A stretch of 64,000 nucleotides of DNA from Bacteroidales bacterium (GTDB taxonomy: Bacteria; Bacteroidota; Bacteroidia; Bacteroidales; FEN-979): contig JAQWBQ010000011.1 in assembly GCA_028706295.1 (NCBI GenBank), positions 10,506 through 74,505 on the forward strand, read 5' to 3'. How positions within the stretch are numbered: position 1 is the first letter of the stretch; each line of letters begins with the position of its first letter. Position numbers and translations under genes: made by a program. The notes beneath the pieces are model-generated. The model worked only from the letters and a program-made list of their open reading frames with translations, was not told where the DNA came from and made no database searches. Positions 14,594 to 53,322 of the stretch are shown here, one piece after another.

Positions 14594-15960
14594 GTTTCAA
14601 TCCACGCCCACCACGAGGGGTGCGACCATATTCAGTTCGCAAGTTTTGCTTTACAACTGTTTCAATCCACGCACCCCTCGCGGGGTGCGACACGATCAAC
14701 TCGACAACATGGAAGCTGACGGGCGTTTCAATCCACGCACCCCTCGCGGGGTGCGACATCCGACGCCGGTTAAATACATGGGCCCGCCGGTGTTTCAATC
14801 CACGCACCCCTCGCGGGGTGCGACTTTTGCAGCGTCTTTTAATCCCAATGCCGCTTCACGGTTTCAATCCACGCACCCCTCGCGGGGTGCGACAAAACGG
14901 TGTTTTTACGGTTATGGTTTTCTTAAAGTTTCAATCCACGCACCCCTCGCGGGGTGCGACGCGAAGCGATCATAAAAACAGATGTACTGATTGCAGGTTT
15001 CAATCCACGCACCCCTCGCGGGGTGCGACACCGGACTGATTCGCTTTGGTTGACTTATTCTTCGTTTCAATCCACGCACCCCTCGCGGGGTGCGACGGAG
15101 CCGCTTCCGGGGTTCCGCCGTTGTTTTTTGTTTCAATCCACGCACCCCTCGCGGGGTGCGACTCTTTCGGCCGATGGATCCAGCTTACCGGAGTTGTTTC
15201 AATCCACGCACCCCTCGCGGGGTGCGACTCACAGGGAAAATCTGATAATTCTCTTTAAGGTGTTTCAATCCACGCACCCCTCGCGGGGTGCGACCGATTA
15301 CGCTTGTATTCGTTACCGCAATCCTTTGTTTCAATCCACGCACCCCTCGCGGGGTGCGACGTTGAGCGTCATCGAAGTTCGCCCGGCGGTATCGTTTCAA
15401 TCCACGCACCCCTCGCGGGGTGCGACACCAAATCAAACCCCAATAACCATGAAAACAATCGTTTCAATCCACGCACCCCTCGCGGGGTGCGACCAATAGT
15501 CGCAATTCGTTTTATGAGTATGAGAAGGTTTCAATCCACGCACCCCTCGCGGGGTGCGACAAAAAGCAAGGGAGCGCGTGGCATTGCACTACGAGTTTCA
15601 ATCCACGCACCCCTCGCGGGGTGCGACATAGTCCGGCCGAACGGAAAATAGTTTGAGGAGTTTCAATCCACGCACCCCTCGCGGGGTGCGACAATGAAGA
15701 TGATCCTGATACGGACTATACCGATGTTTCAATCCACGCACCCCTCGCGGGGTGCGACTCAGGTTAAGTCAAACAATCAAAACTAATAAGCCATGTTTCA
15801 ATCCACGCACCCCTCGCGGGGTGCGACGAGTTCTTTCCCTGTCTGCAGAGTATCGAGATAGGTTTCAATCCACGCACCCCTCGCGGGGTGCGACGCCTAT
15901 GCCGAGGCTGATGATGAAACCAGGAAGGTTTCAATCCACGCACCCCTCGCGGGGTGCGAC
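14594..15960 (-). CRISPR. Type I-C CRISPR array, 21 repeats of 33 nt and 20 spacers of 32-36 nt
   Basis: The plus-strand repeat is GTTTCAATCCACGCACCCCTCGCGGGGTGCGAC. Its minus-strand form, GTCGCACCCCGCGAGGGGTGCGTGGATTGAAAC, has the I-C hallmark ATTGAAAC 3' end and a 7-bp GCACCCC/GGGGTGC stem with a GCGA loop. Repeat starts are 14594, 14659, 14725, 14792, 14861, 14928, 14997, 15064, 15130, 15196, 15262, 15328, 15394, 15461, 15528, 15595, 15660, 15726, 15795, 15862 and 15928. The repeat farthest from cas2 (14594) has 4 mismatches, consistent with a trailer-end repeat. Confidence 0.97.
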
Positions 15961-18184: not shown

Positions 18185-19219
18185 TTAAATTTTTTTGTTC
18201 CCGATTAATCCTTTTTTCCTGATTTCTTTATCAAAATCCGATTCAATGATTTTGTCCCGTACTATCCTGTATTTTTCAAATTCATTTTCAGCAAGGGACA
18301 TTGCCAATTCATGTGACACTGTCCCCGGATGCAAAAGCACCTCCTTTTCGTTAAAACGAAGAAAGGCATCAAGCTTCTCAACCCAATCTTTCATAAACAT
18401 GATTATTCCCTTCTTTGCTTGTGTTTCAGCATAATCGAGATACATACTTACGATTCGGTTTAATGCTTCCAATTCAGTTTCATTCAGATAATTCTTTGCA
18501 ATCCCGATATCAGTTTTGCGGATACTGCCGGATGGAGCATTTTTCCAGTTTGTCAATCCCATATTTTCTACTGAACTGTCGGCTCTTGCTGCAATAATTT
18601 CAGCCGCGGTTTTGCCTGTTATAGCCCAATGAAGTTTATTTTGCACGGTAGAAAAAAATTCAGTGGTAATTCTCGCATTGGCATTGTAATCGGCGCTGCA
18701 TTGACTGTAGATATCGGTTATTTTCTGATAAAAACGTCGTTCACTCGACCTGATATCGCGTATGCGGGCGAGTTGTTCCTCAAAGTAATCTTTCCCAAAT
18801 ATATTTTCAGGATTTTTCAGGCGTTCATCATCCATAGTGAAGCCTTTGATAATATACTCTTTCAGCCTTTCGGTAGCCCAAATTCTGAAATGGGTGGCCT
18901 GAATACTGTTTACGCGATATCCCACCGAAATAATTGCATCCAGATTATAGAACTGGGTTGAATATTTTTTTCCATCAGCGGCAGTATGTGCAATTATTGC
19001 ACATACTGAATCTGGCTTTAACTCATTACTGATGAAGATATTTCTTAAATGCTTGGTTATTACAGTCCTGTCAACTCCAAACAGCTCGGCAATTTTTAGT
19101 TGTGTCAGCCAAATGGTTTCGTCACGAAGAAATATTTCAACTTTAACTTTTCCGTTCGGGGTCGTGTAAAGGAGGATTTGGTTGAAGCCTTCCCGTGCAG
19201 GATAATTTTTTTTACCCAT
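18185..19219 (-). CDS. RhuM-family protein embedded in the cas operon
   Basis: 344-aa ORF. 'ILLYTTPNGKVKVEIFLRDETIWLTQLKIAELFGVDRTVITKHLRNIF...' and 'YNLDAIISVGYRVNS..ATHFRIWAT..L' match the conserved N-terminal half of RhuM (PF13310-type) proteins as I remember them. The gene ends 9 bp before the cas4 start and begins 71 bp after the cas7c stop, on the same strand. Confidence 0.75.
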   Translation of the reverse strand: MGKKNYPAREGFNQILLYTTPNGKVKVEIFLRDETIWLTQLKIAELFGVDRTVITKHLRNIFISNELKPDSVCAIIAHTAADGKKYSTQFYNLDAIISVGYRVNSIQATHFRIWATERLKEYIIKGFTMDDERLKNPENIFGKDYFEEQLARIRDIRSSERRFYQKITDIYSQCSADYNANARITTEFFSTVQNKLHWAITGKTAAEIIAARADSSVENMGLTNWKNAPSGSIRKTDIGIAKNYLNETELEALNRIVSMYLDYAETQAKKGIIMFMKDWVEKLDAFLRFNEKEVLLHPGTVSHELAMSLAENEFEKYRIVRDKIIESDFDKEIRKKGLIGNKKI

Positions 19220-22671: not shown

Positions 22672-24837
22672 TTATATAATGTAAGTATCAGGTTGAGTAT
22701 TACTGGAGATACCGTAATCAGGGTCGTACATACCGTACCATTTCCAATAACCTTGGGGTTCTTTCCCCATTTTGTCAAAATTTTCATTAATAAAATTGTC
22801 ATAGACCTGCACTGAATACTGCTGCATAGATCTGAAGTCGGATCGTGATAATATTGGCTTATATCTTATTTTCTCATACAAATCCCTGCTTTCGTTACAA
22901 AGTATAAAAACAGGCGTTGTCTGTTTTTCAATTAATTGATATGATTCAGAAACGGTTTTAAAATTGAATCCCAGTCTGGCCTGACCAATGTTTTTTTTGT
23001 CTTCAGGAATAAAAAGTGTGAAGGCTTTTCGATAATACTCCTTAAAGAAATCATGTTCAAAAAGCAGAGCTTCTTTTCCTTTGTACAAGCTATTTGCGAA
23101 TTCAGCCAAGGATCGATATTGCTTATCAGGCGAGCCTGCCCCTTCAATTGAAAATATGTAAACCCTGCCAGGCTTATCCAATTTTCCTTCACGATTGCAT
23201 CGTCCGGCCGACTGAATAATTGATTCCAAAGGAGCGAGCTCCCGGTAAACATTTGGAAAATCGAAATCAACTCCGGCTTCAATTAATTGGGTAGAAGATA
23301 CCAATATCTTTTCCTTGTTGCTCAAACAATTTCGAATGGCTCTAATCACTGCTTTGCGGTGTGCCGGATACATGCCTGTTGATAAATGAAAGACTTTATC
23401 GTTTGGGCAATTACGAATTGCATTAAAAAATAGCAAAGCTTGTTTTTTGGTATTGAAAACACACAAGGTCGAACCATCGCGCGCTACCACGTTATCACAT
23501 AATTCATCAATTGTTATCGGTTCGTAATTGTTTAACGGCAGGTAAACAACCCTCCTGGTAGCTTCAAACACTTCTTTTGGATTTTCAACCAAGGACTGAA
23601 TAGAATCAATACCATCAAAAATTTCACTTTTTTCAAAAGCCGGTTGTGTTGCCGTGCAAAACAGAAATGAAGTTTCCATAACTTTCTGAACATTTTTTAA
23701 CATGGTAAGGGTAGGCAATACCAATTCTTTCGGGAGCGTTTGGACTTCATCAAATATTACAACCGATTGAGCGATGTTGTGAACTTTCCGACATCGGGAC
23801 GGCTTGTTTCCAAATAATGATTCAAAAAATTGTACTGATGTAGTAACGATGATCGGGTAGTCCCAGTTTTCGGTAGCTAATCTCTTCGTATAGGTTTCGT
23901 TTGTCAGAATTTCATTTGCTATTTCTTTATTAGTTTCCTCATCTTCATTGAAGTTTGAATGATGTTCAAGCACCCACTCTTCGCCAAAAATGCGTTTCAA
24001 TTCCTGTGCAGTCTGGTCAATAATACTTATGAACGGTAGAACAATGATTATTCTCTTCAAACTGTTATGCTGAGCATGATGCAAAGCCCAACTAACCGAT
24101 GTTAATGTTTTACCCATCCCTGTCGGAAGCGTCATAGAAAAAAAACCAGTATCGGCCCTGGCTTTTAAAATTGCATAATTTCGAACGCTGTTTCGCAATG
24201 TGTTTAAATAACCTTCCTTGCTTTTTCCATCAATCTCCTTTTCAAATTTTGCTAACAGATATTGAGGATCAAGTACTATCGAATTTCGTCTCTCAGACTC
24301 AGATGGACTAAAATGCCGTTCAGTATCTAACCAATCCGCATCCGTCAACGCACTAAACAGCATCCGGATAAACAATTCTTTATCAATACCTCTCAAGCCA
24401 GTATCTTGATAACCCAAATCATCTGCCTTAATTGAGTTTTCTTTTAAAAACTCTGGCATTATGGAAGTCAATAAAGGATGATCCGGATCATCAAATTCAT
24501 AAAGATCAGTTTTTAGATTACCCTTATCCGGAAGACCTTTATGATGGCCGTCAATCGCAAATGCAGCTTCAATTTGGTTATATTGAACAGCAATCGCTGC
24601 ACCCCAACTGGCATGGGGGACACTACCTTTCGTACCTCCTTCTGTCAGGTATTTTTGAAACGCTGGTTGGTATTTACCTAAATCGTGAAGTAATCCAGTG
24701 GTTCGAAATATCTCATTATAAATAGGATTTTCTGTTAATGAACTCATTATTTTGGAGACCCCATTCAGGTGGTCGGACAACTTATGCACGGTCCCCTGAT
24801 CATTTTTTGAATGGGCAATATATCTTTTCTCTTCCAT
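22672..24837 (-). CDS. cas3: CRISPR-associated helicase/nuclease Cas3 (HD domain plus SF2 helicase)
   Basis: 721-aa ORF with HD-nuclease motifs near the N-terminus (LLHDLGKY, IDGHHKG). Walker A 'LPTGMGKT' and the DEAD-like 'VIFDEVQ' box are present. It is the first gene of the operon. Confidence 0.9.
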   Translation of the reverse strand: MEEKRYIAHSKNDQGTVHKLSDHLNGVSKIMSSLTENPIYNEIFRTTGLLHDLGKYQPAFQKYLTEGGTKGSVPHASWGAAIAVQYNQIEAAFAIDGHHKGLPDKGNLKTDLYEFDDPDHPLLTSIMPEFLKENSIKADDLGYQDTGLRGIDKELFIRMLFSALTDADWLDTERHFSPSESERRNSIVLDPQYLLAKFEKEIDGKSKEGYLNTLRNSVRNYAILKARADTGFFSMTLPTGMGKTLTSVSWALHHAQHNSLKRIIIVLPFISIIDQTAQELKRIFGEEWVLEHHSNFNEDEETNKEIANEILTNETYTKRLATENWDYPIIVTTSVQFFESLFGNKPSRCRKVHNIAQSVVIFDEVQTLPKELVLPTLTMLKNVQKVMETSFLFCTATQPAFEKSEIFDGIDSIQSLVENPKEVFEATRRVVYLPLNNYEPITIDELCDNVVARDGSTLCVFNTKKQALLFFNAIRNCPNDKVFHLSTGMYPAHRKAVIRAIRNCLSNKEKILVSSTQLIEAGVDFDFPNVYRELAPLESIIQSAGRCNREGKLDKPGRVYIFSIEGAGSPDKQYRSLAEFANSLYKGKEALLFEHDFFKEYYRKAFTLFIPEDKKNIGQARLGFNFKTVSESYQLIEKQTTPVFILCNESRDLYEKIRYKPILSRSDFRSMQQYSVQVYDNFINENFDKMGKEPQGYWKWYGMYDPDYGISSNTQPDTYII

Positions 24838-25206: not shown

Positions 25207-25563
25207 TCAACCATTCTGTTGAATCTCATTTTGAGAGGCAACATCTTTATCATCGCTGCCTTGCCCGCCTCTTTTCATCTCGCTCAGCTTCCTGCCGACA
25301 ACCAGGTTATATTCATTTTGCAAATCGACCGGGGTCACTTCGTTGGAGATGCCGGCTGCTTTGTTCTGCCGATACTGGCTTGCCGCGGCCTTTGCTGCAA
25401 TCGCGAAACGACGACGGTTCTCCTTCTGCTTTTTGGTCCATACACCTTTAAAAACTGGCTTTGCCGAAAGGATTACATATTTACCGTAATTTTTCAGAAT
25501 CACCTGTTTGCCGATTGTTCCGCTGAAACATTTGACCAGCACATTGTCCTTGCTTTTTGCCAT
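25207..25563 (-). CDS. Hypothetical small basic protein (118 aa)
   Basis: K/R-rich ORF (KKQKENRRRFAIAAKAAASQYRQNK) with an acidic/polar tail. I recognise no family. It lies 156 bp downstream, in its own direction, of the 11-bp repeat array. Confidence 0.5.
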   Translation of the reverse strand: MAKSKDNVLVKCFSGTIGKQVILKNYGKYVILSAKPVFKGVWTKKQKENRRRFAIAAKAAASQYRQNKAAGISNEVTPVDLQNEYNLVVGRKLSEMKRGGQGSDDKDVASQNEIQQNG

Positions 25564-25718
25564 CGGATTGATTATTTTTGTTATTGAAATTTTCCGGATT
25601 TAAAGCTTAATCCGCCTTCACTAACAAAAGTCAACGCTCCCTCCTTCTTTTTTCCGGAATCAGCTATCTTTTTCCGGTTTTTGCTCAATTTTATATCGTT
25701 GTTCAACCGGAAGACCAT

Positions 25719-25960
25719 CGCAGGATGGACGCAGGATGAACGCAGGAAGAACACAGGATCAATGTAGTATCGACGAAGAATCTACGCGGTATGGACGCGA
25801 GATATGTGCTGGATGGATTCTAGATCAGCACGCAATCAACGCAGGATTGAGGCAAGATTGACCCAAGATTGAGCCAAGTTCAACGCCGGATTGACGTACC
25901 ATAGAGACAGTATGGACGAGGAATCAAAGCAGGATGTTCGCAGAATGGTCGCGGGATGAC
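25719..25960. repeat. Array of 22 contiguous, indel-free 11-bp units (consensus about CGCAGGATKGA)
   Basis: Units read directly from the sequence: cgcaggatgga, cgcaggatgaa, cgcaggaagaa, cacaggatcaa, tgtagtatcga, cgaagaatcta, cgcggtatgga, cgcgagatatg, tgctggatgga, ttctagatcag, cacgcaatcaa, cgcaggattga, ggcaagattga, cccaagattga, gccaagttcaa, cgccggattga, cgtaccataga, gacagtatgga, cgaggaatcaa, agcaggatgtt, cgcagaatggt, cgcgggatgac. The AT dinucleotide at unit positions 7-8 is kept in 20 of 22 units. Confidence 0.85.
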
Positions 25961-25974
25961 GCTGCCCTTTCAGA

Positions 25975-27270
25975 CTACAAAATGATCTGTTCAGGCCAGG
26001 GATTTGTTTTTGAAGTTCCCCAGAGCTTGTTGATATAATCGATCGAAAAGAAATCTTCAAAAGCATGAATCCAATAGGCGCCTCTGTCGGTCAGATTGAT
26101 CAGGTCCTGTCCGTTTTGAAGAAATCCAATTTTTTCCATCAGTGAAAAATATGTTCCATATTCTTTATCAATACTTTGGCCAAACCTTCGCTGGAAATCA
26201 CTTTTTCTGAATTTGGTTTCATAAATTCTCCAATAGAGCCACCCGGCCATTTGTGCTTTTTCTGATAAATCAAAGGATAAAGCAATGGGGGAGTTGTTGT
26301 TCTCCATAGCCCTGATATATTCTTTCACATTGAACGTGTTCACATAAAACATGTTTTTAAGATAGGAACTGCCACTGGCGCCAATTCCCAGGTATGAAGG
26401 AACCGTGACTGAACAATATTTATCCATTCCCTTTTGCGTGAAAGCCCACACCGATGAGCGTTCAAATCGTGACCCGTAAAAAATCTCTTCAATTACTTTG
26501 AGAAACTTTCTTCGGCGGAACATCGTTGAAAGGATATTGCGTTTATCAGGCAACTCTTTACCAAAGCGGGTATATTGAAATCTGAATAGTGGATACGTGG
26601 CTGCCTGGTTGATTCCAAGCTTAATCATGCTGGAGATGGCCTGCTCTACCTCAGATATCGTTTGGCCCGGTAAATCAAATATAAAATCGATGTTTAAACA
26701 CTCGAAATTTTTCCCGGCAGCTCTGCTCACAAAATCCTTAACCTCATTTTCAGTATAAGGCCTTTCCAATAATTTTAAATGCCTGTTCTGCAATGCTTCA
26801 ACGCCGACACTTAAGTATTTTACACCCAATGATTTCAGGGCATCAAGGTTTTCATTGCTCAGATGGTTGGGGTGACTTTCGATATGAATAGAACACCTCA
26901 TATTGAAATTTTTAAAAACCGCATCAAGAATCTCTTCCAGCCCCTTACCCAACATGGTTGTCGGGGTGCCACCTCCGATGTAAAAACTTGAAATGGGTTT
27001 CCCTGCCATCAGGGCTGCGTATTTTTTAACCTCCCTGACAACCGCTGCTGCATAATTCCGGGCAAGATCTTCATGAAACAGCTCTTTGTTATAGGGGCAA
27101 TAAGGACATATTTGGTTGCAAAACGGAATATGAAGATATAATCCTGTTTCGTCAAGCTCTTTAAAATTTTGAGCTATGGATGAATCTTGCGGAATAATAT
27201 TCTGAAACTTAATTTCATGTTGCCCAAAGAATTTTCCGGCTATCTTATTTCGAATAATTTCTGAAATCAT
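25975..27270 (-). CDS. HemN-like radical SAM enzyme (oxygen-independent coproporphyrinogen III oxidase family / class C radical SAM)
   Basis: CxxxCxxC motif 'CNQICPYCPY', then 'FYIGGGTP' and a HemN-type C-terminal domain. The track ORF extends to 27384, but that extension translates the TCGTAAA repeat element (MFNRKFYLIVNRKS...). The ATG at 27270 (MISEIIRNK) is the more likely start. Confidence 0.8.
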   Translation of the reverse strand: MISEIIRNKIAGKFFGQHEIKFQNIIPQDSSIAQNFKELDETGLYLHIPFCNQICPYCPYNKELFHEDLARNYAAAVVREVKKYAALMAGKPISSFYIGGGTPTTMLGKGLEEILDAVFKNFNMRCSIHIESHPNHLSNENLDALKSLGVKYLSVGVEALQNRHLKLLERPYTENEVKDFVSRAAGKNFECLNIDFIFDLPGQTISEVEQAISSMIKLGINQAATYPLFRFQYTRFGKELPDKRNILSTMFRRRKFLKVIEEIFYGSRFERSSVWAFTQKGMDKYCSVTVPSYLGIGASGSSYLKNMFYVNTFNVKEYIRAMENNNSPIALSFDLSEKAQMAGWLYWRIYETKFRKSDFQRRFGQSIDKEYGTYFSLMEKIGFLQNGQDLINLTDRGAYWIHAFEDFFSIDYINKLWGTSKTNPWPEQIIL

Positions 27271-27364
27271 TTCTGTTGATATCTTCTGATTCGATCCTCC
27301 GTGGCTTGATCCGGGATCCGGGCCGAAATTTACGATTAAACAAGATTTACGATTGACGATTAAA

Positions 27365-27404
27365 TAAAATTTACGATTGAACATGATTTACGATTTACGA
27401 TTGT
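27365..27404 (-). repeat. TCGTAAA-heptad element, copy A (core, reverse orientation), inside a cluster of ATTTACGATT-like units at 27326..27427
   Basis: The minus strand reads ACAATCGTAAATCGTAAATCATGTTCAATCGTAAATTTTA, identical over 40 nt to 34679..34718 on the plus strand. The surrounding region holds at least 5 further direct copies and 1 inverted copy of TTTACGATT. Confidence 0.9.
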
Positions 27405-27472: not shown

Positions 27473-28351
27473 TTAAAAATATTTCAGTGCATTTAAAAGC
27501 GCCCCTGGACGCAATTTCAAGGCCTGGTTGATTTCTGCATAACTCAGATACCCGCAGTCATGGCATACCTCACCATTATTGTTTTCCCTGCAACAATTAT
27601 AAAACCGGCCCTCTTCGTAAACCCTGCAGATCTTTAAGTTTTTTTTCCAGTCATTTCGGATAGCAGATTTCAACCCGGTCGTGGAATTCAGGATTTTATA
27701 TTTTCTCTTCAGATTCAGGAGCTGATGCAGGATTTCATTTCTGACCGGTGCATCCAGATACAACTTATCGTATCCGTAATACGGTGTGTGGAAATAAAAA
27801 AAGGTGCCTTTAATTTGAGGGATTTTATCGATGAAGGCACAGAAATCAGCTATCTCAGATTTATTTTCAGAATTGATGGTATAGTTGATGAAGACCGAAG
27901 GGTGTGTTGATTCCCGGATATTCTTCATGATGGTATCGAATGACCTTCCCCTGAGCTTATCATGCGTGTCTTTCAGTCCGTCAACGCTGAGAAAAACCGT
28001 ATCGGCATGTGAAATAAGCGGTAATGTTCCGTTGGTATATACGACTACAGTGTAATAGCCCTTTTGGTGAGCATAATCAATCACATCGTTTAAGGTGTAT
28101 GCGTGATCATTCCAAAGAAGCGGCTCCCCGCCTTCCAGGTAAAGACACCGTCCTCCGTCGGTATAAAACTTATCAATAATGTCAAGGGTTTCCCCGAATT
28201 TCATCTTCGCTTCCGGTCTTTCGAAAATGGTACAATGCCGGCATCGTAAATTACATTTGTTATGTAAAACCAATCCGCATATTAATGGTTTATTGCGATC
28301 ATGAAACCAGTAATTAAAAATGTATTTTATGCCAAATATGATATATTTCAT
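27473..28351 (-). CDS. Radical SAM protein with a C-terminal Cys-rich (twitch/SPASM-like) motif
   Basis: 292-aa ORF with 'CNLRCRHC' (CxxxCxxC), 'LEGGEPLL', and C-terminal 'CRVYEEGRFYNCCRENNNGEVCHDCGY'. Confidence 0.8.
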   Translation of the reverse strand: MKYIIFGIKYIFNYWFHDRNKPLICGLVLHNKCNLRCRHCTIFERPEAKMKFGETLDIIDKFYTDGGRCLYLEGGEPLLWNDHAYTLNDVIDYAHQKGYYTVVVYTNGTLPLISHADTVFLSVDGLKDTHDKLRGRSFDTIMKNIRESTHPSVFINYTINSENKSEIADFCAFIDKIPQIKGTFFYFHTPYYGYDKLYLDAPVRNEILHQLLNLKRKYKILNSTTGLKSAIRNDWKKNLKICRVYEEGRFYNCCRENNNGEVCHDCGYLSYAEINQALKLRPGALLNALKYF

Positions 28352-34678: not shown

Positions 34679-34718
34679 ACAATCGTAAATCGTAAATCAT
34701 GTTCAATCGTAAATTTTA
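34679..34718 (+). repeat. TCGTAAA-heptad element, copy B
   Basis: ACAATCGTAAATCGTAAATCATGTTCAATCGTAAATTTTA, in the intergenic region between 33729..34463 and 34771..37575. It is an exact 40-nt match to the reverse complement of 27365..27404. Confidence 0.9.
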
Positions 34719-53290: not shown

Positions 53291-53322
53291 TCGTAAATCG
53301 TAAATCATGTTCAATCGTAAAT
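53291..53322 (+). repeat. TCGTAAA-heptad element, copy C
   Basis: TCGTAAATCGTAAATCATGTTCAATCGTAAAT, an exact 32-nt match to copies A and B. It abuts the start codon of the minus-strand STAS/kinase gene and lies 65 nt upstream of the plus-strand aldo/keto reductase start. Confidence 0.9.

What the first reader, a model, noticed from the sequence alone, without database searches (positions are those of the whole stretch)
25590..25960. 22 phase-locked 11-bp iteron-like units plus three TTTTCCGG boxes upstream of a small basic protein gene
Positions 25719-25960 consist of 22 head-to-tail 11-bp units (consensus about CGCAGGATKGA) with no indel across 242 bp. An AT dinucleotide is kept at the same unit position in 20 of 22 units while other positions drift. 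All three plus-strand frames hit stops inside it, and 11 is not a multiple of 3, so it is not an ordinary coding repeat.

An 11-bp period is about one helical turn, which would place every conserved AT on the same face of the DNA. That geometry is expected for cooperative protein filament binding or intrinsic curvature. The best-known example is the 11-bp iterons of the plasmid R1 parC centromere bound by ParR.

Between the array and the next gene lie three TTTTCCGG boxes (25590, 25650, 25670), spaced 60 and 20 bp apart. The next gene on the minus strand (25207-25563) encodes a 118-aa K/R-rich protein of unknown family, about the size of a ParR-type or RHH adaptor. It could be the binding partner. 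The whole block sits between a radical-SAM pair and cas3. Nothing I know explains this structure.
Basis: seen in the sequence. Interest (0 to 1): 0.75.

Follow-up and report, generated by a model that had tools for sequence, protein, structure and literature searches.

The report
CAGGAT repeat array paired with small protein
The 22-unit, 11-bp repeat is real, and the same CAGGAT repeat sits beside every examined relative of the neighbouring small basic protein gene in at least two bacterial phyla, so the two probably form an undescribed protein and binding-site pair, though binding itself is untested.

Summary
Positions 25719-25960 are 22 in-phase 11-bp units (consensus CGCAGGATGGA) with no indel. 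Lag-11 identity is 0.59, against 0.26 +/- 0.03 in shuffles. AT is kept in 20 of 22 units, and all six frames contain stops.

The array is not a structured RNA, a coding repeat, an A-tract bend, or a parC-type centromere.

The decisive result is comparative. The 118-aa gene belongs to an unannotated family of about 100-aa, very basic proteins (at least 162 clusters, no Pfam, NCBIfam, PHROG or PDB relative). Of six homologue lineages sampled from the protein side, four carry a strong 11-bp-phased CAG(G/T)AT array next to the gene and two a weak one. Identity to the window protein is as low as 26-40%. Three loci retrieved by the DNA pattern alone also encode a homologue beside the array.

Neighbouring genes are not conserved, so the radical-SAM pair and cas3 are incidental.

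Array orientation and position differ by clade, which favours DNA recognition over RNA recognition.

The array is a VNTR. It gains or loses one unit among strains about 98% identical in DNA, and has 6-7 units in a lineage about 91% identical.

The best reading is that the small protein binds head-to-tail on its own iteron array. Binding is inferred, not shown.

The parts
25719..25960 (.). Array of 22 head-to-tail 11-bp units. The consensus is CGCAGGATGGA on the + strand, which reads TCCATCCTGCG on the - strand, the coding strand of the small gene. The core is CAGGAT. 13 of 22 units have at most 1 mismatch to CAGGAT.
   Evidence: Strain alleles differ by whole units at the gene-proximal end. 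A lineage about 91% identical in DNA has 6-7 units at the same site.
25207..25563 (-). Gene for a 118-aa basic protein. The N-terminal 70 aa have pI 10.6 and the C-terminal tail is acidic. It belongs to an unannotated family of about 100-aa proteins with the motif SGxxG...P...WSxxQ..R.RF..A...A.
   Evidence: dN/dS is 0.43 against the L011 orthologue. There is no Pfam, NCBIfam, PADLOC, PHROG or PDB match. The AlphaFold2 model has pLDDT 62: a beta-hairpin, a long basic helix and a second helix.
25564..25718 (-). 155-bp spacer between the array and the ATG of the small gene. It presumably holds the promoter. It is unusually variable between strains about 98% identical overall (about 17 differences in 150 bp), while the array itself is identical.
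   Evidence: No sigma-70-like promoter or terminator was found here.
25590..25597 (-). CCGGAAAA box 3, 27-34 nt upstream of the ATG. It overlaps the imperfect palindrome CGGATTTAAAGCTTAATCCG at 25595-25614.
   Evidence: Conserved in the same species and in the L011 lineage.
25650..25657 (-). CCGGAAAA box 2.
25670..25677 (-). CCGGAAAA box 1. This box and the array-proximal flank ATGGTCTTCCGGTTGAA have a counterpart in metagenome locus L151.

Best explanation
The array and the small gene form one self-contained module.

Proposed mechanism (inferred):
- The roughly 100-aa basic protein recognises the hexamer CAGGAT, extended to CAGGATGG in Bacteroidota-type members.
- It binds head-to-tail to copies spaced exactly 11 bp apart, coating the array as a short filament.
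- Because an array always lies beside the protein's own gene, the first function is feedback control of that gene.

Two architectures are seen:
- In Chloroflexi-type members, 4 units sit between a -10 box and the ribosome-binding site, which is an operator position. In L066 the promoter is near-consensus; in L201 the -10-like box was read by eye.
- In Bacteroidota-type members, including this window, the array lies 80-210 bp upstream of the ATG with ATCCTG on the coding strand. In the window it directly follows the stop codon of the upstream radical-SAM gene. There it could tune the promoter or block read-through.

The window's lineage has expanded the array by unit slippage to 22-23 units, from the 2-8 units seen next to other family members. 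Expansion may raise binding capacity or change the set-point.

Shown: the periodicity, the copy-number variation, the family, and the co-occurrence with its statistics.
Inferred: direct binding, polymerisation, and autoregulation.
For: 1. Protein-side sampling. All six homologue lineages with upstream DNA have a phased CAG(G/T)AT array next to the gene: L192, L195, L196 (weak), L197, L200 and L201.

2. Statistics. The phased 5-unit CAGGAT scores for those six loci are 25, 22, 18, 19, 22 and 27. The maximum over 183,196 background positions is 21.

3. DNA-side sampling. Among about 170 loci fetched only by the repeat pattern, a profile of the protein family hits an ORF beside the array in L066 (E 3e-23), L157 (2e-22) and L164 (1e-17). 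This family has only about 162 clusters among 5.8 billion proteins.

4. Spacing is exactly 11 bp in every member, and the core is conserved (CGCAGGATGGA, CGCAGGATGGT, CACAGGATGGA, TACAGGATGGA, TACAGGATGAG). The most divergent protein (26% identity) has the most divergent core, CAGTAT.

5. Sense and position relative to the gene differ between clades. A DNA reader tolerates this; an RNA reader does not.

6. In L066 the array occupies about +5 to +50 of an 11/12 sigma-70-type promoter.

7. All members are very basic, pI 10-11.

8. No other neighbouring gene is conserved.

9. Within the window array, phase is kept over 242 bp and A7/T8 are near-invariant while positions 9-10 drift.
Against: - No binding data exist.
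- The protein has no recognisable DNA-binding fold. The AlphaFold2 model is only moderate (pLDDT 62) and Foldseek against the PDB gives nothing.
- L196 and L197 have weak arrays, with per-region p of about 0.10 and 0.03.
- In L164 the array is downstream of the gene.
- Many CAGGAT arrays elsewhere have no homologue nearby: the Cloacimonadota elements, other Bacteroidota loci and viral contigs. The repeat type is therefore not exclusive to this protein, and part of that set is an artefact of searching for the pattern.
- Orthologous units diverge between the window and L011 at about the same rate as the flanking genes, so there is no sign of extra constraint at that short distance.
- An AT-biased mutation spectrum could explain part of the A7/T8 conservation.
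Confidence: 0.55

Rival explanations
1. The array is a cis-regulatory site for a different, unidentified trans-acting factor that controls this gene family. The small protein is only the regulated product.
For: Arrays of the same unit occur at loci with no homologue nearby. Examples are L141, L149, L189 and L177 in related low-GC contigs and about 50 elements in two Cloacimonadota MAGs. The small protein has no recognisable DNA-binding domain.
Against: This requires a second factor conserved across Bacteroidota and Chloroflexota that always targets this one tiny gene. No second conserved gene accompanies the module. The most divergent protein carries the most divergent core, which fits self-recognition better.
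Confidence: 0.15
2. Recognition is at the RNA level. The repeats are transcribed, as a 5' UTR or as a separate repeat RNA, and bind the protein. The models are type III toxin-antitoxin repeat RNAs or CsrB-type GGA sponges; the unit contains CAGGAUG.
For: In L066, and probably L201, the array lies between the -10 box and the RBS, so it is transcribed in CAGGAU sense. The repeats sit upstream of a small gene and often near defence or toxin-antitoxin genes. CAGGAUG matches the CsrB repeat (my knowledge).
Against: In the window, L011, L157, L192, L195 and L197 the coding strand carries the complement, AUCCUG. One RNA-binding specificity cannot read both senses. Neither strand folds better than shuffles, with z of -0.8 and -0.6. 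There is no Rfam hit. No promoter or terminator pair brackets the array. An 11-nt unit is far shorter than the 34-45-nt type III antitoxin units, and no ToxN-like domain is present. Bacteroidota are not known to have CsrA (my knowledge, not tested).
Confidence: 0.1
3. The array is a functionally neutral intergenic minisatellite (VNTR) produced by slippage. Its position next to the small gene is incidental, or a by-product of a slippage-prone sequence inherited with the gene.
For: Whole-unit gain and loss occurs among strains about 98% identical, and the unit count is 22 against 6-7 in a lineage about 91% identical. Interior units are decayed. Perfect CAGGAT-containing 11-bp repeats occur in many unrelated genomes and viruses. 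Orthologous units show no extra conservation at 91% identity.
Against: Neutral repeats would not be retained with the same core, the same 11-bp spacing and the same gene at 26-40% protein identity and across phyla. No indel occurs in 242 bp despite about 30% unit divergence.
Confidence: 0.08
4. The array is a ParR/parC-like, TubR/tubC-like or omega-like partition centromere, with the small protein as centromere-binding adaptor.
For: The 11-bp direct iterons lie next to the gene of a small basic protein, as in R1 parC, which has two sets of five iterons bound by ParR (PMC2241845 abstract).
Against: No actin-, tubulin- or ParA-type NTPase gene is adjacent in any of the contexts examined. The loci are on contigs of up to 1 Mb carrying housekeeping genes. 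No plasmid or phage markers were found.
Confidence: 0.04

Closest known systems
Omega (ω) repressor of pSM19035 and its heptad arrays
   Same: A small protein binds contiguous short repeats cooperatively. The arrays lie upstream of its own promoter and others, repeat orientation can vary, and the copy number is 7-10 (my knowledge).
   Different: Omega is a ribbon-helix-helix protein with a 7-bp unit. It is plasmid-borne and doubles as the centromere adaptor for a ParA. Here the unit is 11 bp, the fold is unknown, the context is chromosomal, and no ParA is present.
R1 ParR / parC
   Same: 11-bp direct iterons are bound cooperatively by a small protein encoded next to them (PMC2241845).
   Different: parC is 5+5 iterons flanking the parMR promoter and needs ParM. 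No NTPase is present here, there is a single block of 22 units, and the sequence and protein are unrelated.
P2 Cox / 186 Apl (and lambda Xis) phased direct-repeat binders
   Same: Proteins of about 80-90 aa coat 4-7 direct repeats spaced about one helical turn apart, and act as repressors of adjacent promoters (my knowledge).
   Different: Those proteins are prophage-encoded, winged-helix or HTH, and tied to integrase and att sites. No integrase or prophage context appears here, and there are no PHROG hits.
OmpR/PhoB-type, SARP and CarH operators (direct repeats with an 11-bp period)
   Same: The unit has a conserved 6-7 bp core followed by 4-5 variable bp, repeated every 11 bp. Several papers listed use this geometry.
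   Different: Those binders are larger proteins with receiver, winged-helix or B12 domains. Pfam finds none of these in the small protein.
Pneumococcal BOX-type modular intergenic repeats and bacterial VNTRs
   Same: The location is intergenic and the number of internal tandem modules varies between strains. The Cloacimonadota copies look like modular dispersed elements.
   Different: The window array is tied to one gene family across phyla. nhmmer finds no flanking modules of the Cloacimonadota element beside it.

Membership tests
R1-type parC/ParR centromere (type II partition) | Tandem 11-bp iterons | tested here: met
   22 in-phase 11-bp units. The sequence is unrelated to parC, which was not compared directly.
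R1-type parC/ParR centromere (type II partition) | Adjacent operon encoding an actin-like ParM (or other partition NTPase) together with the adaptor | tested here: not met
   The neighbours are radical-SAM genes and cas3. No NTPase of that kind lies next to any family member examined.
R1-type parC/ParR centromere (type II partition) | Ribbon-helix-helix adaptor protein | tested here: inconclusive
   No RHH Pfam hit. The AlphaFold2 model shows a beta-hairpin at residues 21-34 and helices at 44-70 and 84-98, at pLDDT 62. Foldseek found nothing.
Type III toxin-antitoxin (ToxIN-like) | Repeats of about 34-45 nt upstream of, and co-oriented with, a ToxN/AbiQ-fold endoribonuclease gene, separated from it by a terminator | tested here: not met
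   The unit is 11 nt. The sense relative to the gene differs between clades. There is no terminator and no PADLOC or Pfam hit.
CsrB/RsmZ-type GGA sponge RNA | Independently transcribed RNA with GGA motifs presented in hairpin loops | tested here: not met
   Fold z-scores are -0.8 and -0.6. There is no Rfam match and no promoter and terminator pair.
CsrB/RsmZ-type GGA sponge RNA | CsrA encoded in the genome | not testable with these tools
   nhmmer with either module finds nothing next to the window array; the best E-values elsewhere in the window are 0.48 for the 5' module and 7.5 for the 3' module.
Small-protein plus CAGGAT-array module (defined here) | Member of the approximately 100-aa basic family (profile A4) | tested here: met
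   The window protein seeds the family. Homologues reach E of 1e-6 with phmmer and 1e-17 to 1e-26 with the profile.
Small-protein plus CAGGAT-array module (defined here) | At least 2-4 CAG(G/T)AT cores at exact 11-bp spacing within about 250 bp of the gene | tested here: met
   The window has 22 units, 155 bp from the ATG. The other members are tabulated.
Small-protein plus CAGGAT-array module (defined here) | The protein binds the array | not testable with these tools
   This needs EMSA, footprinting, DAP-seq, or at least protein-DNA co-folding.
Bacterial VNTR / minisatellite | Whole-unit copy-number differences between close strains | tested here: met
   Three alleles among strains about 98% identical differ by single 11-bp units. 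The lineage about 91% identical has 6-7 units against 22.

The most novel reading that the evidence does not exclude
This is a previously undescribed family of small, sequence-specific, filament-forming DNA-binding proteins. Each member is encoded next to its own 11-bp CAGGAT iteron array, and the family is spread across Bacteroidota, Chloroflexota and probably other phyla. Array length is a slippage-tunable rheostat for the protein's set-point. Additional CAGGAT arrays elsewhere in the genome, up to about 50 dispersed elements in Cloacimonadota, would serve as further binding sites. That would make the protein a new kind of nucleoid-associated or island-associated regulator.
Probability: 0.4. 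Interest if true: 0.8.

Novelty: new variant of a known kind. Interest (0 to 1): 0.66.

Why it matters
If the protein binds its array, this defines a new and widespread DNA-binding fold with a simple, programmable recognition code: one hexamer per helical turn. It would also have a natural dosage dial in the form of repeat number.

The module is compact, about 0.5-0.8 kb. It occurs in phyla where transcriptional regulators are poorly charted. It often sits in variable regions next to CRISPR-Cas, Abi and toxin-antitoxin genes, so it may mark or regulate such islands.

It would give a function to more than 160 protein clusters currently labelled 'hypothetical protein'. It would also explain one class of puzzling intergenic 11-bp repeats in metagenome-assembled genomes.

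The hypothesis can be tested directly with one purified 100-aa protein and a synthetic oligonucleotide.

Tried and rejected
1. CsrB-like GGA sponge or other structured RNA. Rejected: no Rfam hit, fold z-scores near zero on both strands, RNAalifold found no consensus structure for the Cloacimonadota copies, and the strand sense is opposite in different clades.

2. Coding repeat or RiPP core. Rejected: stops in all six frames.

3. Intrinsic A-tract curvature. Rejected: no A/T run of 4 or more in the array. A full wedge-model calculation was not run.

4. Copy of the dispersed Cloacimonadota element (REP/MITE/BOX-like). Rejected: the flank modules are not found beside the window array.

5. Directional promoter element of a regulon. 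Rejected: arrays without the gene show no orientation preference relative to flanking genes.

6. Functional link to the radical-SAM pair or to cas3. Rejected: both are absent from the other family contexts, and tblastn with the two rSAM proteins against the array loci found nothing.

7. Phage origin. No evidence: no PHROG hits, and the 13 viral contigs with CAGGAT arrays lack the protein.

8. Fold assignment. It failed: single-sequence AlphaFold2 gave pLDDT 45, an 11-sequence alignment gave 62, and Foldseek and PDB profile searches were empty.

10. Two literature searches found only the known 11-bp systems (parC, PhoB, SARP, CarH, RepB) and nothing on CAGGAT repeats or this family.

Caveat: the pattern scans force CAGGAT, so the apparent taxonomic spread of 'array-only' loci is partly a selection effect.

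Full report
1. THE OBSERVATION

Reading 25719-25960 in steps of 11 gives 22 units with consensus CGCAGGATGGA and no indel.
- A7 and T8 are each present in 21/22 units, and both together in 20/22. Positions 9-10 are the most variable, at 9 and 11 of 22.
- Lag-11, lag-22 and lag-33 identities are 0.59, 0.57 and 0.52. Other lags give 0.15-0.33.
- 5000 shuffles of the array give 0.264 +/- 0.028, with a maximum of 0.372. The best 242-bp stretch elsewhere in the window reaches 0.355.
- TRF detects only the three best-preserved pieces.
- All six frames contain 2-4 stops, and there is no A/T run of 4 or more.
- The three CCGGAAAA boxes are real and clustered.

2. THE SURROUNDINGS

The window comes from a MAG labelled 'Bacteroidales bacterium' (names of identical proteins). 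Reading along the minus strand, the order of features is as follows:
- a PTO1314-like radical-SAM gene (27473-28351);
- a HemN-like radical-SAM gene (25975-27384, or 27270 for the 431-aa start);
- the array, which begins 15 bp after that gene's stop codon;
- a 155-bp spacer;
- the 118-aa gene (25207-25563);
- 369 bp of intergenic DNA;
- a type I-C cas operon (cas3, cas5d, csd1, cas7, a RhuM insert, cas4, cas1, cas2) and its CRISPR array (14659-15960).

There are no Rfam families or tRNAs in the window. Neither strand of the array folds better than shuffles. No sigma-70-like promoter or intrinsic terminator brackets the array.

3. CLOSE RELATIVES

Ten contigs carry the identical 118-aa protein and are about 98% identical in DNA to the window. 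In these the interior of the array is identical.
- They show three alleles that differ by single whole units at the gene-proximal end: the window type, a type lacking TTCATCCTGCG, and a 23-unit type.
- A lineage about 91% identical (L011-L017) has the same flanks but only 6-7 units.
- Downstream of its small gene that lineage carries unrelated genes (HTH_3, GerE) instead of cas.

So the array is a VNTR, and cas3 is not part of the unit.

4. A DETOUR

A scan of species-representative genomes for three GCAGGAT cores at 11-bp spacing returned more than 119 loci. They were dominated by two Cloacimonadota MAGs.
- In those MAGs the motif is the centre of a dispersed intergenic element of about 120 bp. 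It has a 5' module, 3-4 (up to 9) units, and a 3' module. It has no consensus RNA structure and no orientation preference.
- Its flank modules are not present next to the window array.
- Other Bacteroidota carry long intergenic arrays with the same core, again without orientation preference.

Because the pattern forces CAGGAT, this spread cannot by itself be read as enrichment.

5. THE DECISIVE EVIDENCE

The small protein looked like an orphan in a word-indexed search, which returned only relatives of at least 87% identity.
- An exhaustive phmmer search found about 100-aa homologues at 39-44% identity over the N-terminal 65 residues.
- A profile search then found 162 clusters. All are about 99-105 aa, all are labelled 'hypothetical protein', and none has a Pfam domain.
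- The 14 sequences aligned in A4 are all very basic, pI 10-11.
- dN/dS between the window gene and the L011 orthologue is 0.43.

In each case with upstream DNA, an 11-bp-phased CAG(G/T)AT array lies next to the gene:

| Locus (protein) | Units seen | Position |
|---|---|---|
| L192 (P0032) | 5 units: ...TCCATCCTGCG...ACCATCCTGCG | 83 bp upstream |
| L195 (P0031) | two good units, then degenerate ones | about 210 bp upstream |
| L197 (P0036) | TTCATCCTGTA TCCATCCTGTA, then degenerate ones | 156 bp upstream |
| L196 (P0033) | weak, 1-2 units | about 150 bp upstream |
| L200 (P0077) | 4 x GAGCAGTATGG | 38 bp upstream |
| L201 (P0081) | 4 x TACAGGATGAG | 21 bp upstream |

A phased five-unit CAGGAT score gives 25, 22, 18, 19, 22 and 27 for these six upstream regions. 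The maximum over 183,196 background positions is 21.

The converse test also holds. A profile of the protein family was searched against all ORFs of about 170 loci that had been fetched only by the DNA pattern. It hit an ORF beside the array in three of them:
- L066 (Anaerolineales), E 3e-23;
- L157, E 2e-22;
- L164, E 1e-17.

For a family this rare, the expected number of chance hits is well below 1e-3 (my estimate).

No other gene is shared among these neighbourhoods. They contain cas3; Cas9, AbiEii and TilS; an MNT-HEPN pair; thioredoxin; MazE-PIN; and an HsdM fragment with a guanylate cyclase.

6. ANATOMY ACROSS THE FAMILY

Spacing is exactly 11 bp everywhere.
- Bacteroidota-type members (window, L011, L157, L192, L195, L197) carry (C/T)(G/A)CAGGATGG(A/T). 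ATCCTG is on the coding strand, and the array lies 83-212 bp upstream of the ATG. Three of these gaps are 154-156 bp.
- Chloroflexi-type members (L066, L201, L200) carry the CAGGAT sense on the coding strand, 17-38 bp before the ATG. In L066 the four units occupy about +5 to +50 of an 11/12 sigma-70-type promoter. L201 is monocistronic, with a terminator after the gene.
- In L164 the array (8 units) lies downstream of a longer homologue.
- The protein most distant from the window (26% identity) has the most divergent core, CAGTAT.

The window's 22-23 units are the largest gene-associated array seen; the others have 2-8.

7. INTERPRETATION

The association is shown. The mechanism is inferred.
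- The sense of the repeat relative to the gene flips between clades. A double-stranded-DNA reader explains the data with one specificity; an RNA reader does not.
- A conserved 6-8-bp core, followed by variable bases and repeated once per helical turn, is the geometry used by known cooperative head-to-tail binders. Examples are ParR/parC, omega, Cox/Apl, PhoB/OmpR, SARP and CarH (for several; the rest is my knowledge).
- An array beside the binder's own gene is the classic autoregulatory arrangement, and the Chloroflexi-type position is an operator position.

I therefore favour a self-contained protein and iteron module in which array length, set by slippage, modulates occupancy.

Why this lineage expanded the array is open. 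So is whether, in the window, the coated array also insulates the small gene from the radical-SAM operon that ends 15 bp away.

8. WHAT IT IS NOT
- Not a parC-type centromere: there is no partition NTPase in any context.
- Not a type III toxin-antitoxin: the unit is too short, the sense varies, and there is no ToxN-like domain.
- Not a CsrB-type sponge.
- Not a coding repeat.
- Not an A-tract bend.

The protein matches nothing in Pfam, NCBIfam, PADLOC, PHROGs or PDB sequences. A moderate AlphaFold2 model has no Foldseek match.

9. LIMITS
- Binding is untested.
- Two of the six protein-side arrays are weak.
- Array-only loci are common, and their relation to the protein is unknown.
- Taxon labels are those of MAG submitters.

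10. VERDICT

Its central guess, an iteron array with the small basic protein as its partner, gains strong comparative support. The centromere and curvature analogies, and the role of the neighbouring genes, do not. The module appears undescribed: a new variant of the 'small cooperative binder plus iteron array' theme.

Noticed in passing
L024-L138, the loci from contigs PHBP01... and CAYSSP01...; e.g. L083:4002-4131(-), L087:4664-4793(+): Two Cloacimonadota MAGs carry dozens of copies of a dispersed intergenic element of about 120 bp. It consists of a conserved 5' module (...GCnCTCCCTTTC...CTAAA...TTGCAGGACAG...TGTTCA), then 3-4 (up to 9) units (A/T)GCAGGATnnA, then AGCATCCTATCAAGCAGAGCGC. There is no Rfam hit, no consensus RNA structure and no orientation bias. 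Copies are mostly between convergent or tandem genes. No small-protein homologue occurs in the roughly 400 kb fetched.
   Followed up: partly
window 27329-27402, 34681-34713, 53291-53321; also L151:7570-7654 and L177:4141-4222: A second dispersed motif is present: a 33-nt sequence, AATCGTAAATCGTAAATCATGTTCAATCGTAAAT, built of 7-bp sub-repeats. Two of the three window copies lie 30-90 bp upstream of gene starts in the genes' orientation, one of them before the HemN-like rSAM gene (431-aa start); the copy at 34681 reads in the opposite orientation to the adjacent gene. It is likely a lineage-specific promoter or operator element.
   Followed up: partly
L141, L149, L177, L189 and L151 (metagenome contigs; L149 and L141 share genes with the window at about 68% nucleotide identity): Related low-GC contigs carry the same unit, CGCAGGATGGA or CGCAGGATGGT (3-6 copies), at unrelated intergenic sites with no small-protein gene in the fetched DNA. 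One metagenome (Ga0247841) has three long contigs with such arrays, and one of those (L157) has the gene. These may be extra binding sites of the same protein.
   Followed up: partly
L151:7950-8080(+) compared with window 25640-25760(-): L151 shares with the window not only the units but also the array-proximal flank ATG(G/C)TCTTCCGGTT(G/T)AA and a box of the form CAAAAA(G)CCGG(G)AAAAA(GA)TAG. Its gene context is different: no rSAM genes and no small gene. A GC-rich stretch of about 290 bp and unknown nature precedes its array.
   Followed up: no
L192:3768-3829; L164:2080-2112; L186, 5' flank of the array; window 25697-25705: CAGGAT arrays are often abutted by a second, different short tandem repeat. 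Examples are TTGTTCAGTGG x5.6 in L192, GGGAGAGACAA x3 in L164, and GAACACTTCC x4 in L186. A TGTTCA/TGAACA motif recurs next to arrays, including in the window and in the Cloacimonadota element.
   Followed up: no
window 25564-25718, compared with L001-L010: The 155-bp spacer between the array and the small gene differs at about 17 positions between strains that are about 98% identical overall, while the adjacent array interior is identical. Three mosaic haplotypes exist (window/L008, the L001 type, and L011).
   Followed up: partly
window 18185-19219(-); 22672-24837(-): A RhuM-family gene sits inside the type I-C cas operon, between cas7 and cas4. cas3 is intact (721 aa) in the window and L008 but is split into 440 + 233/272-aa ORFs in most sister strains. 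L002 carries a divergent cas3-cas7 block, with an 806-aa Cas3.
   Followed up: no
contexts of L192, L195, L200, L201 and the window: The small gene with its array often lies beside defence or toxin-antitoxin genes: cas3; Cas9 with AbiEii; an MNT-HEPN pair; MazE-PIN; and an HsdM_N fragment. In the window it marks the border where synteny with the lineage about 91% identical breaks.
   Followed up: no
P0037 (273 aa), and P0039 and the L164 ORF (191-193 aa): Some family members are tandem duplications of the roughly 95-aa domain, or carry a C-terminal extension of about 90 aa. The C-terminal tails of the short members are variable, and acidic in the window protein.
   Followed up: no
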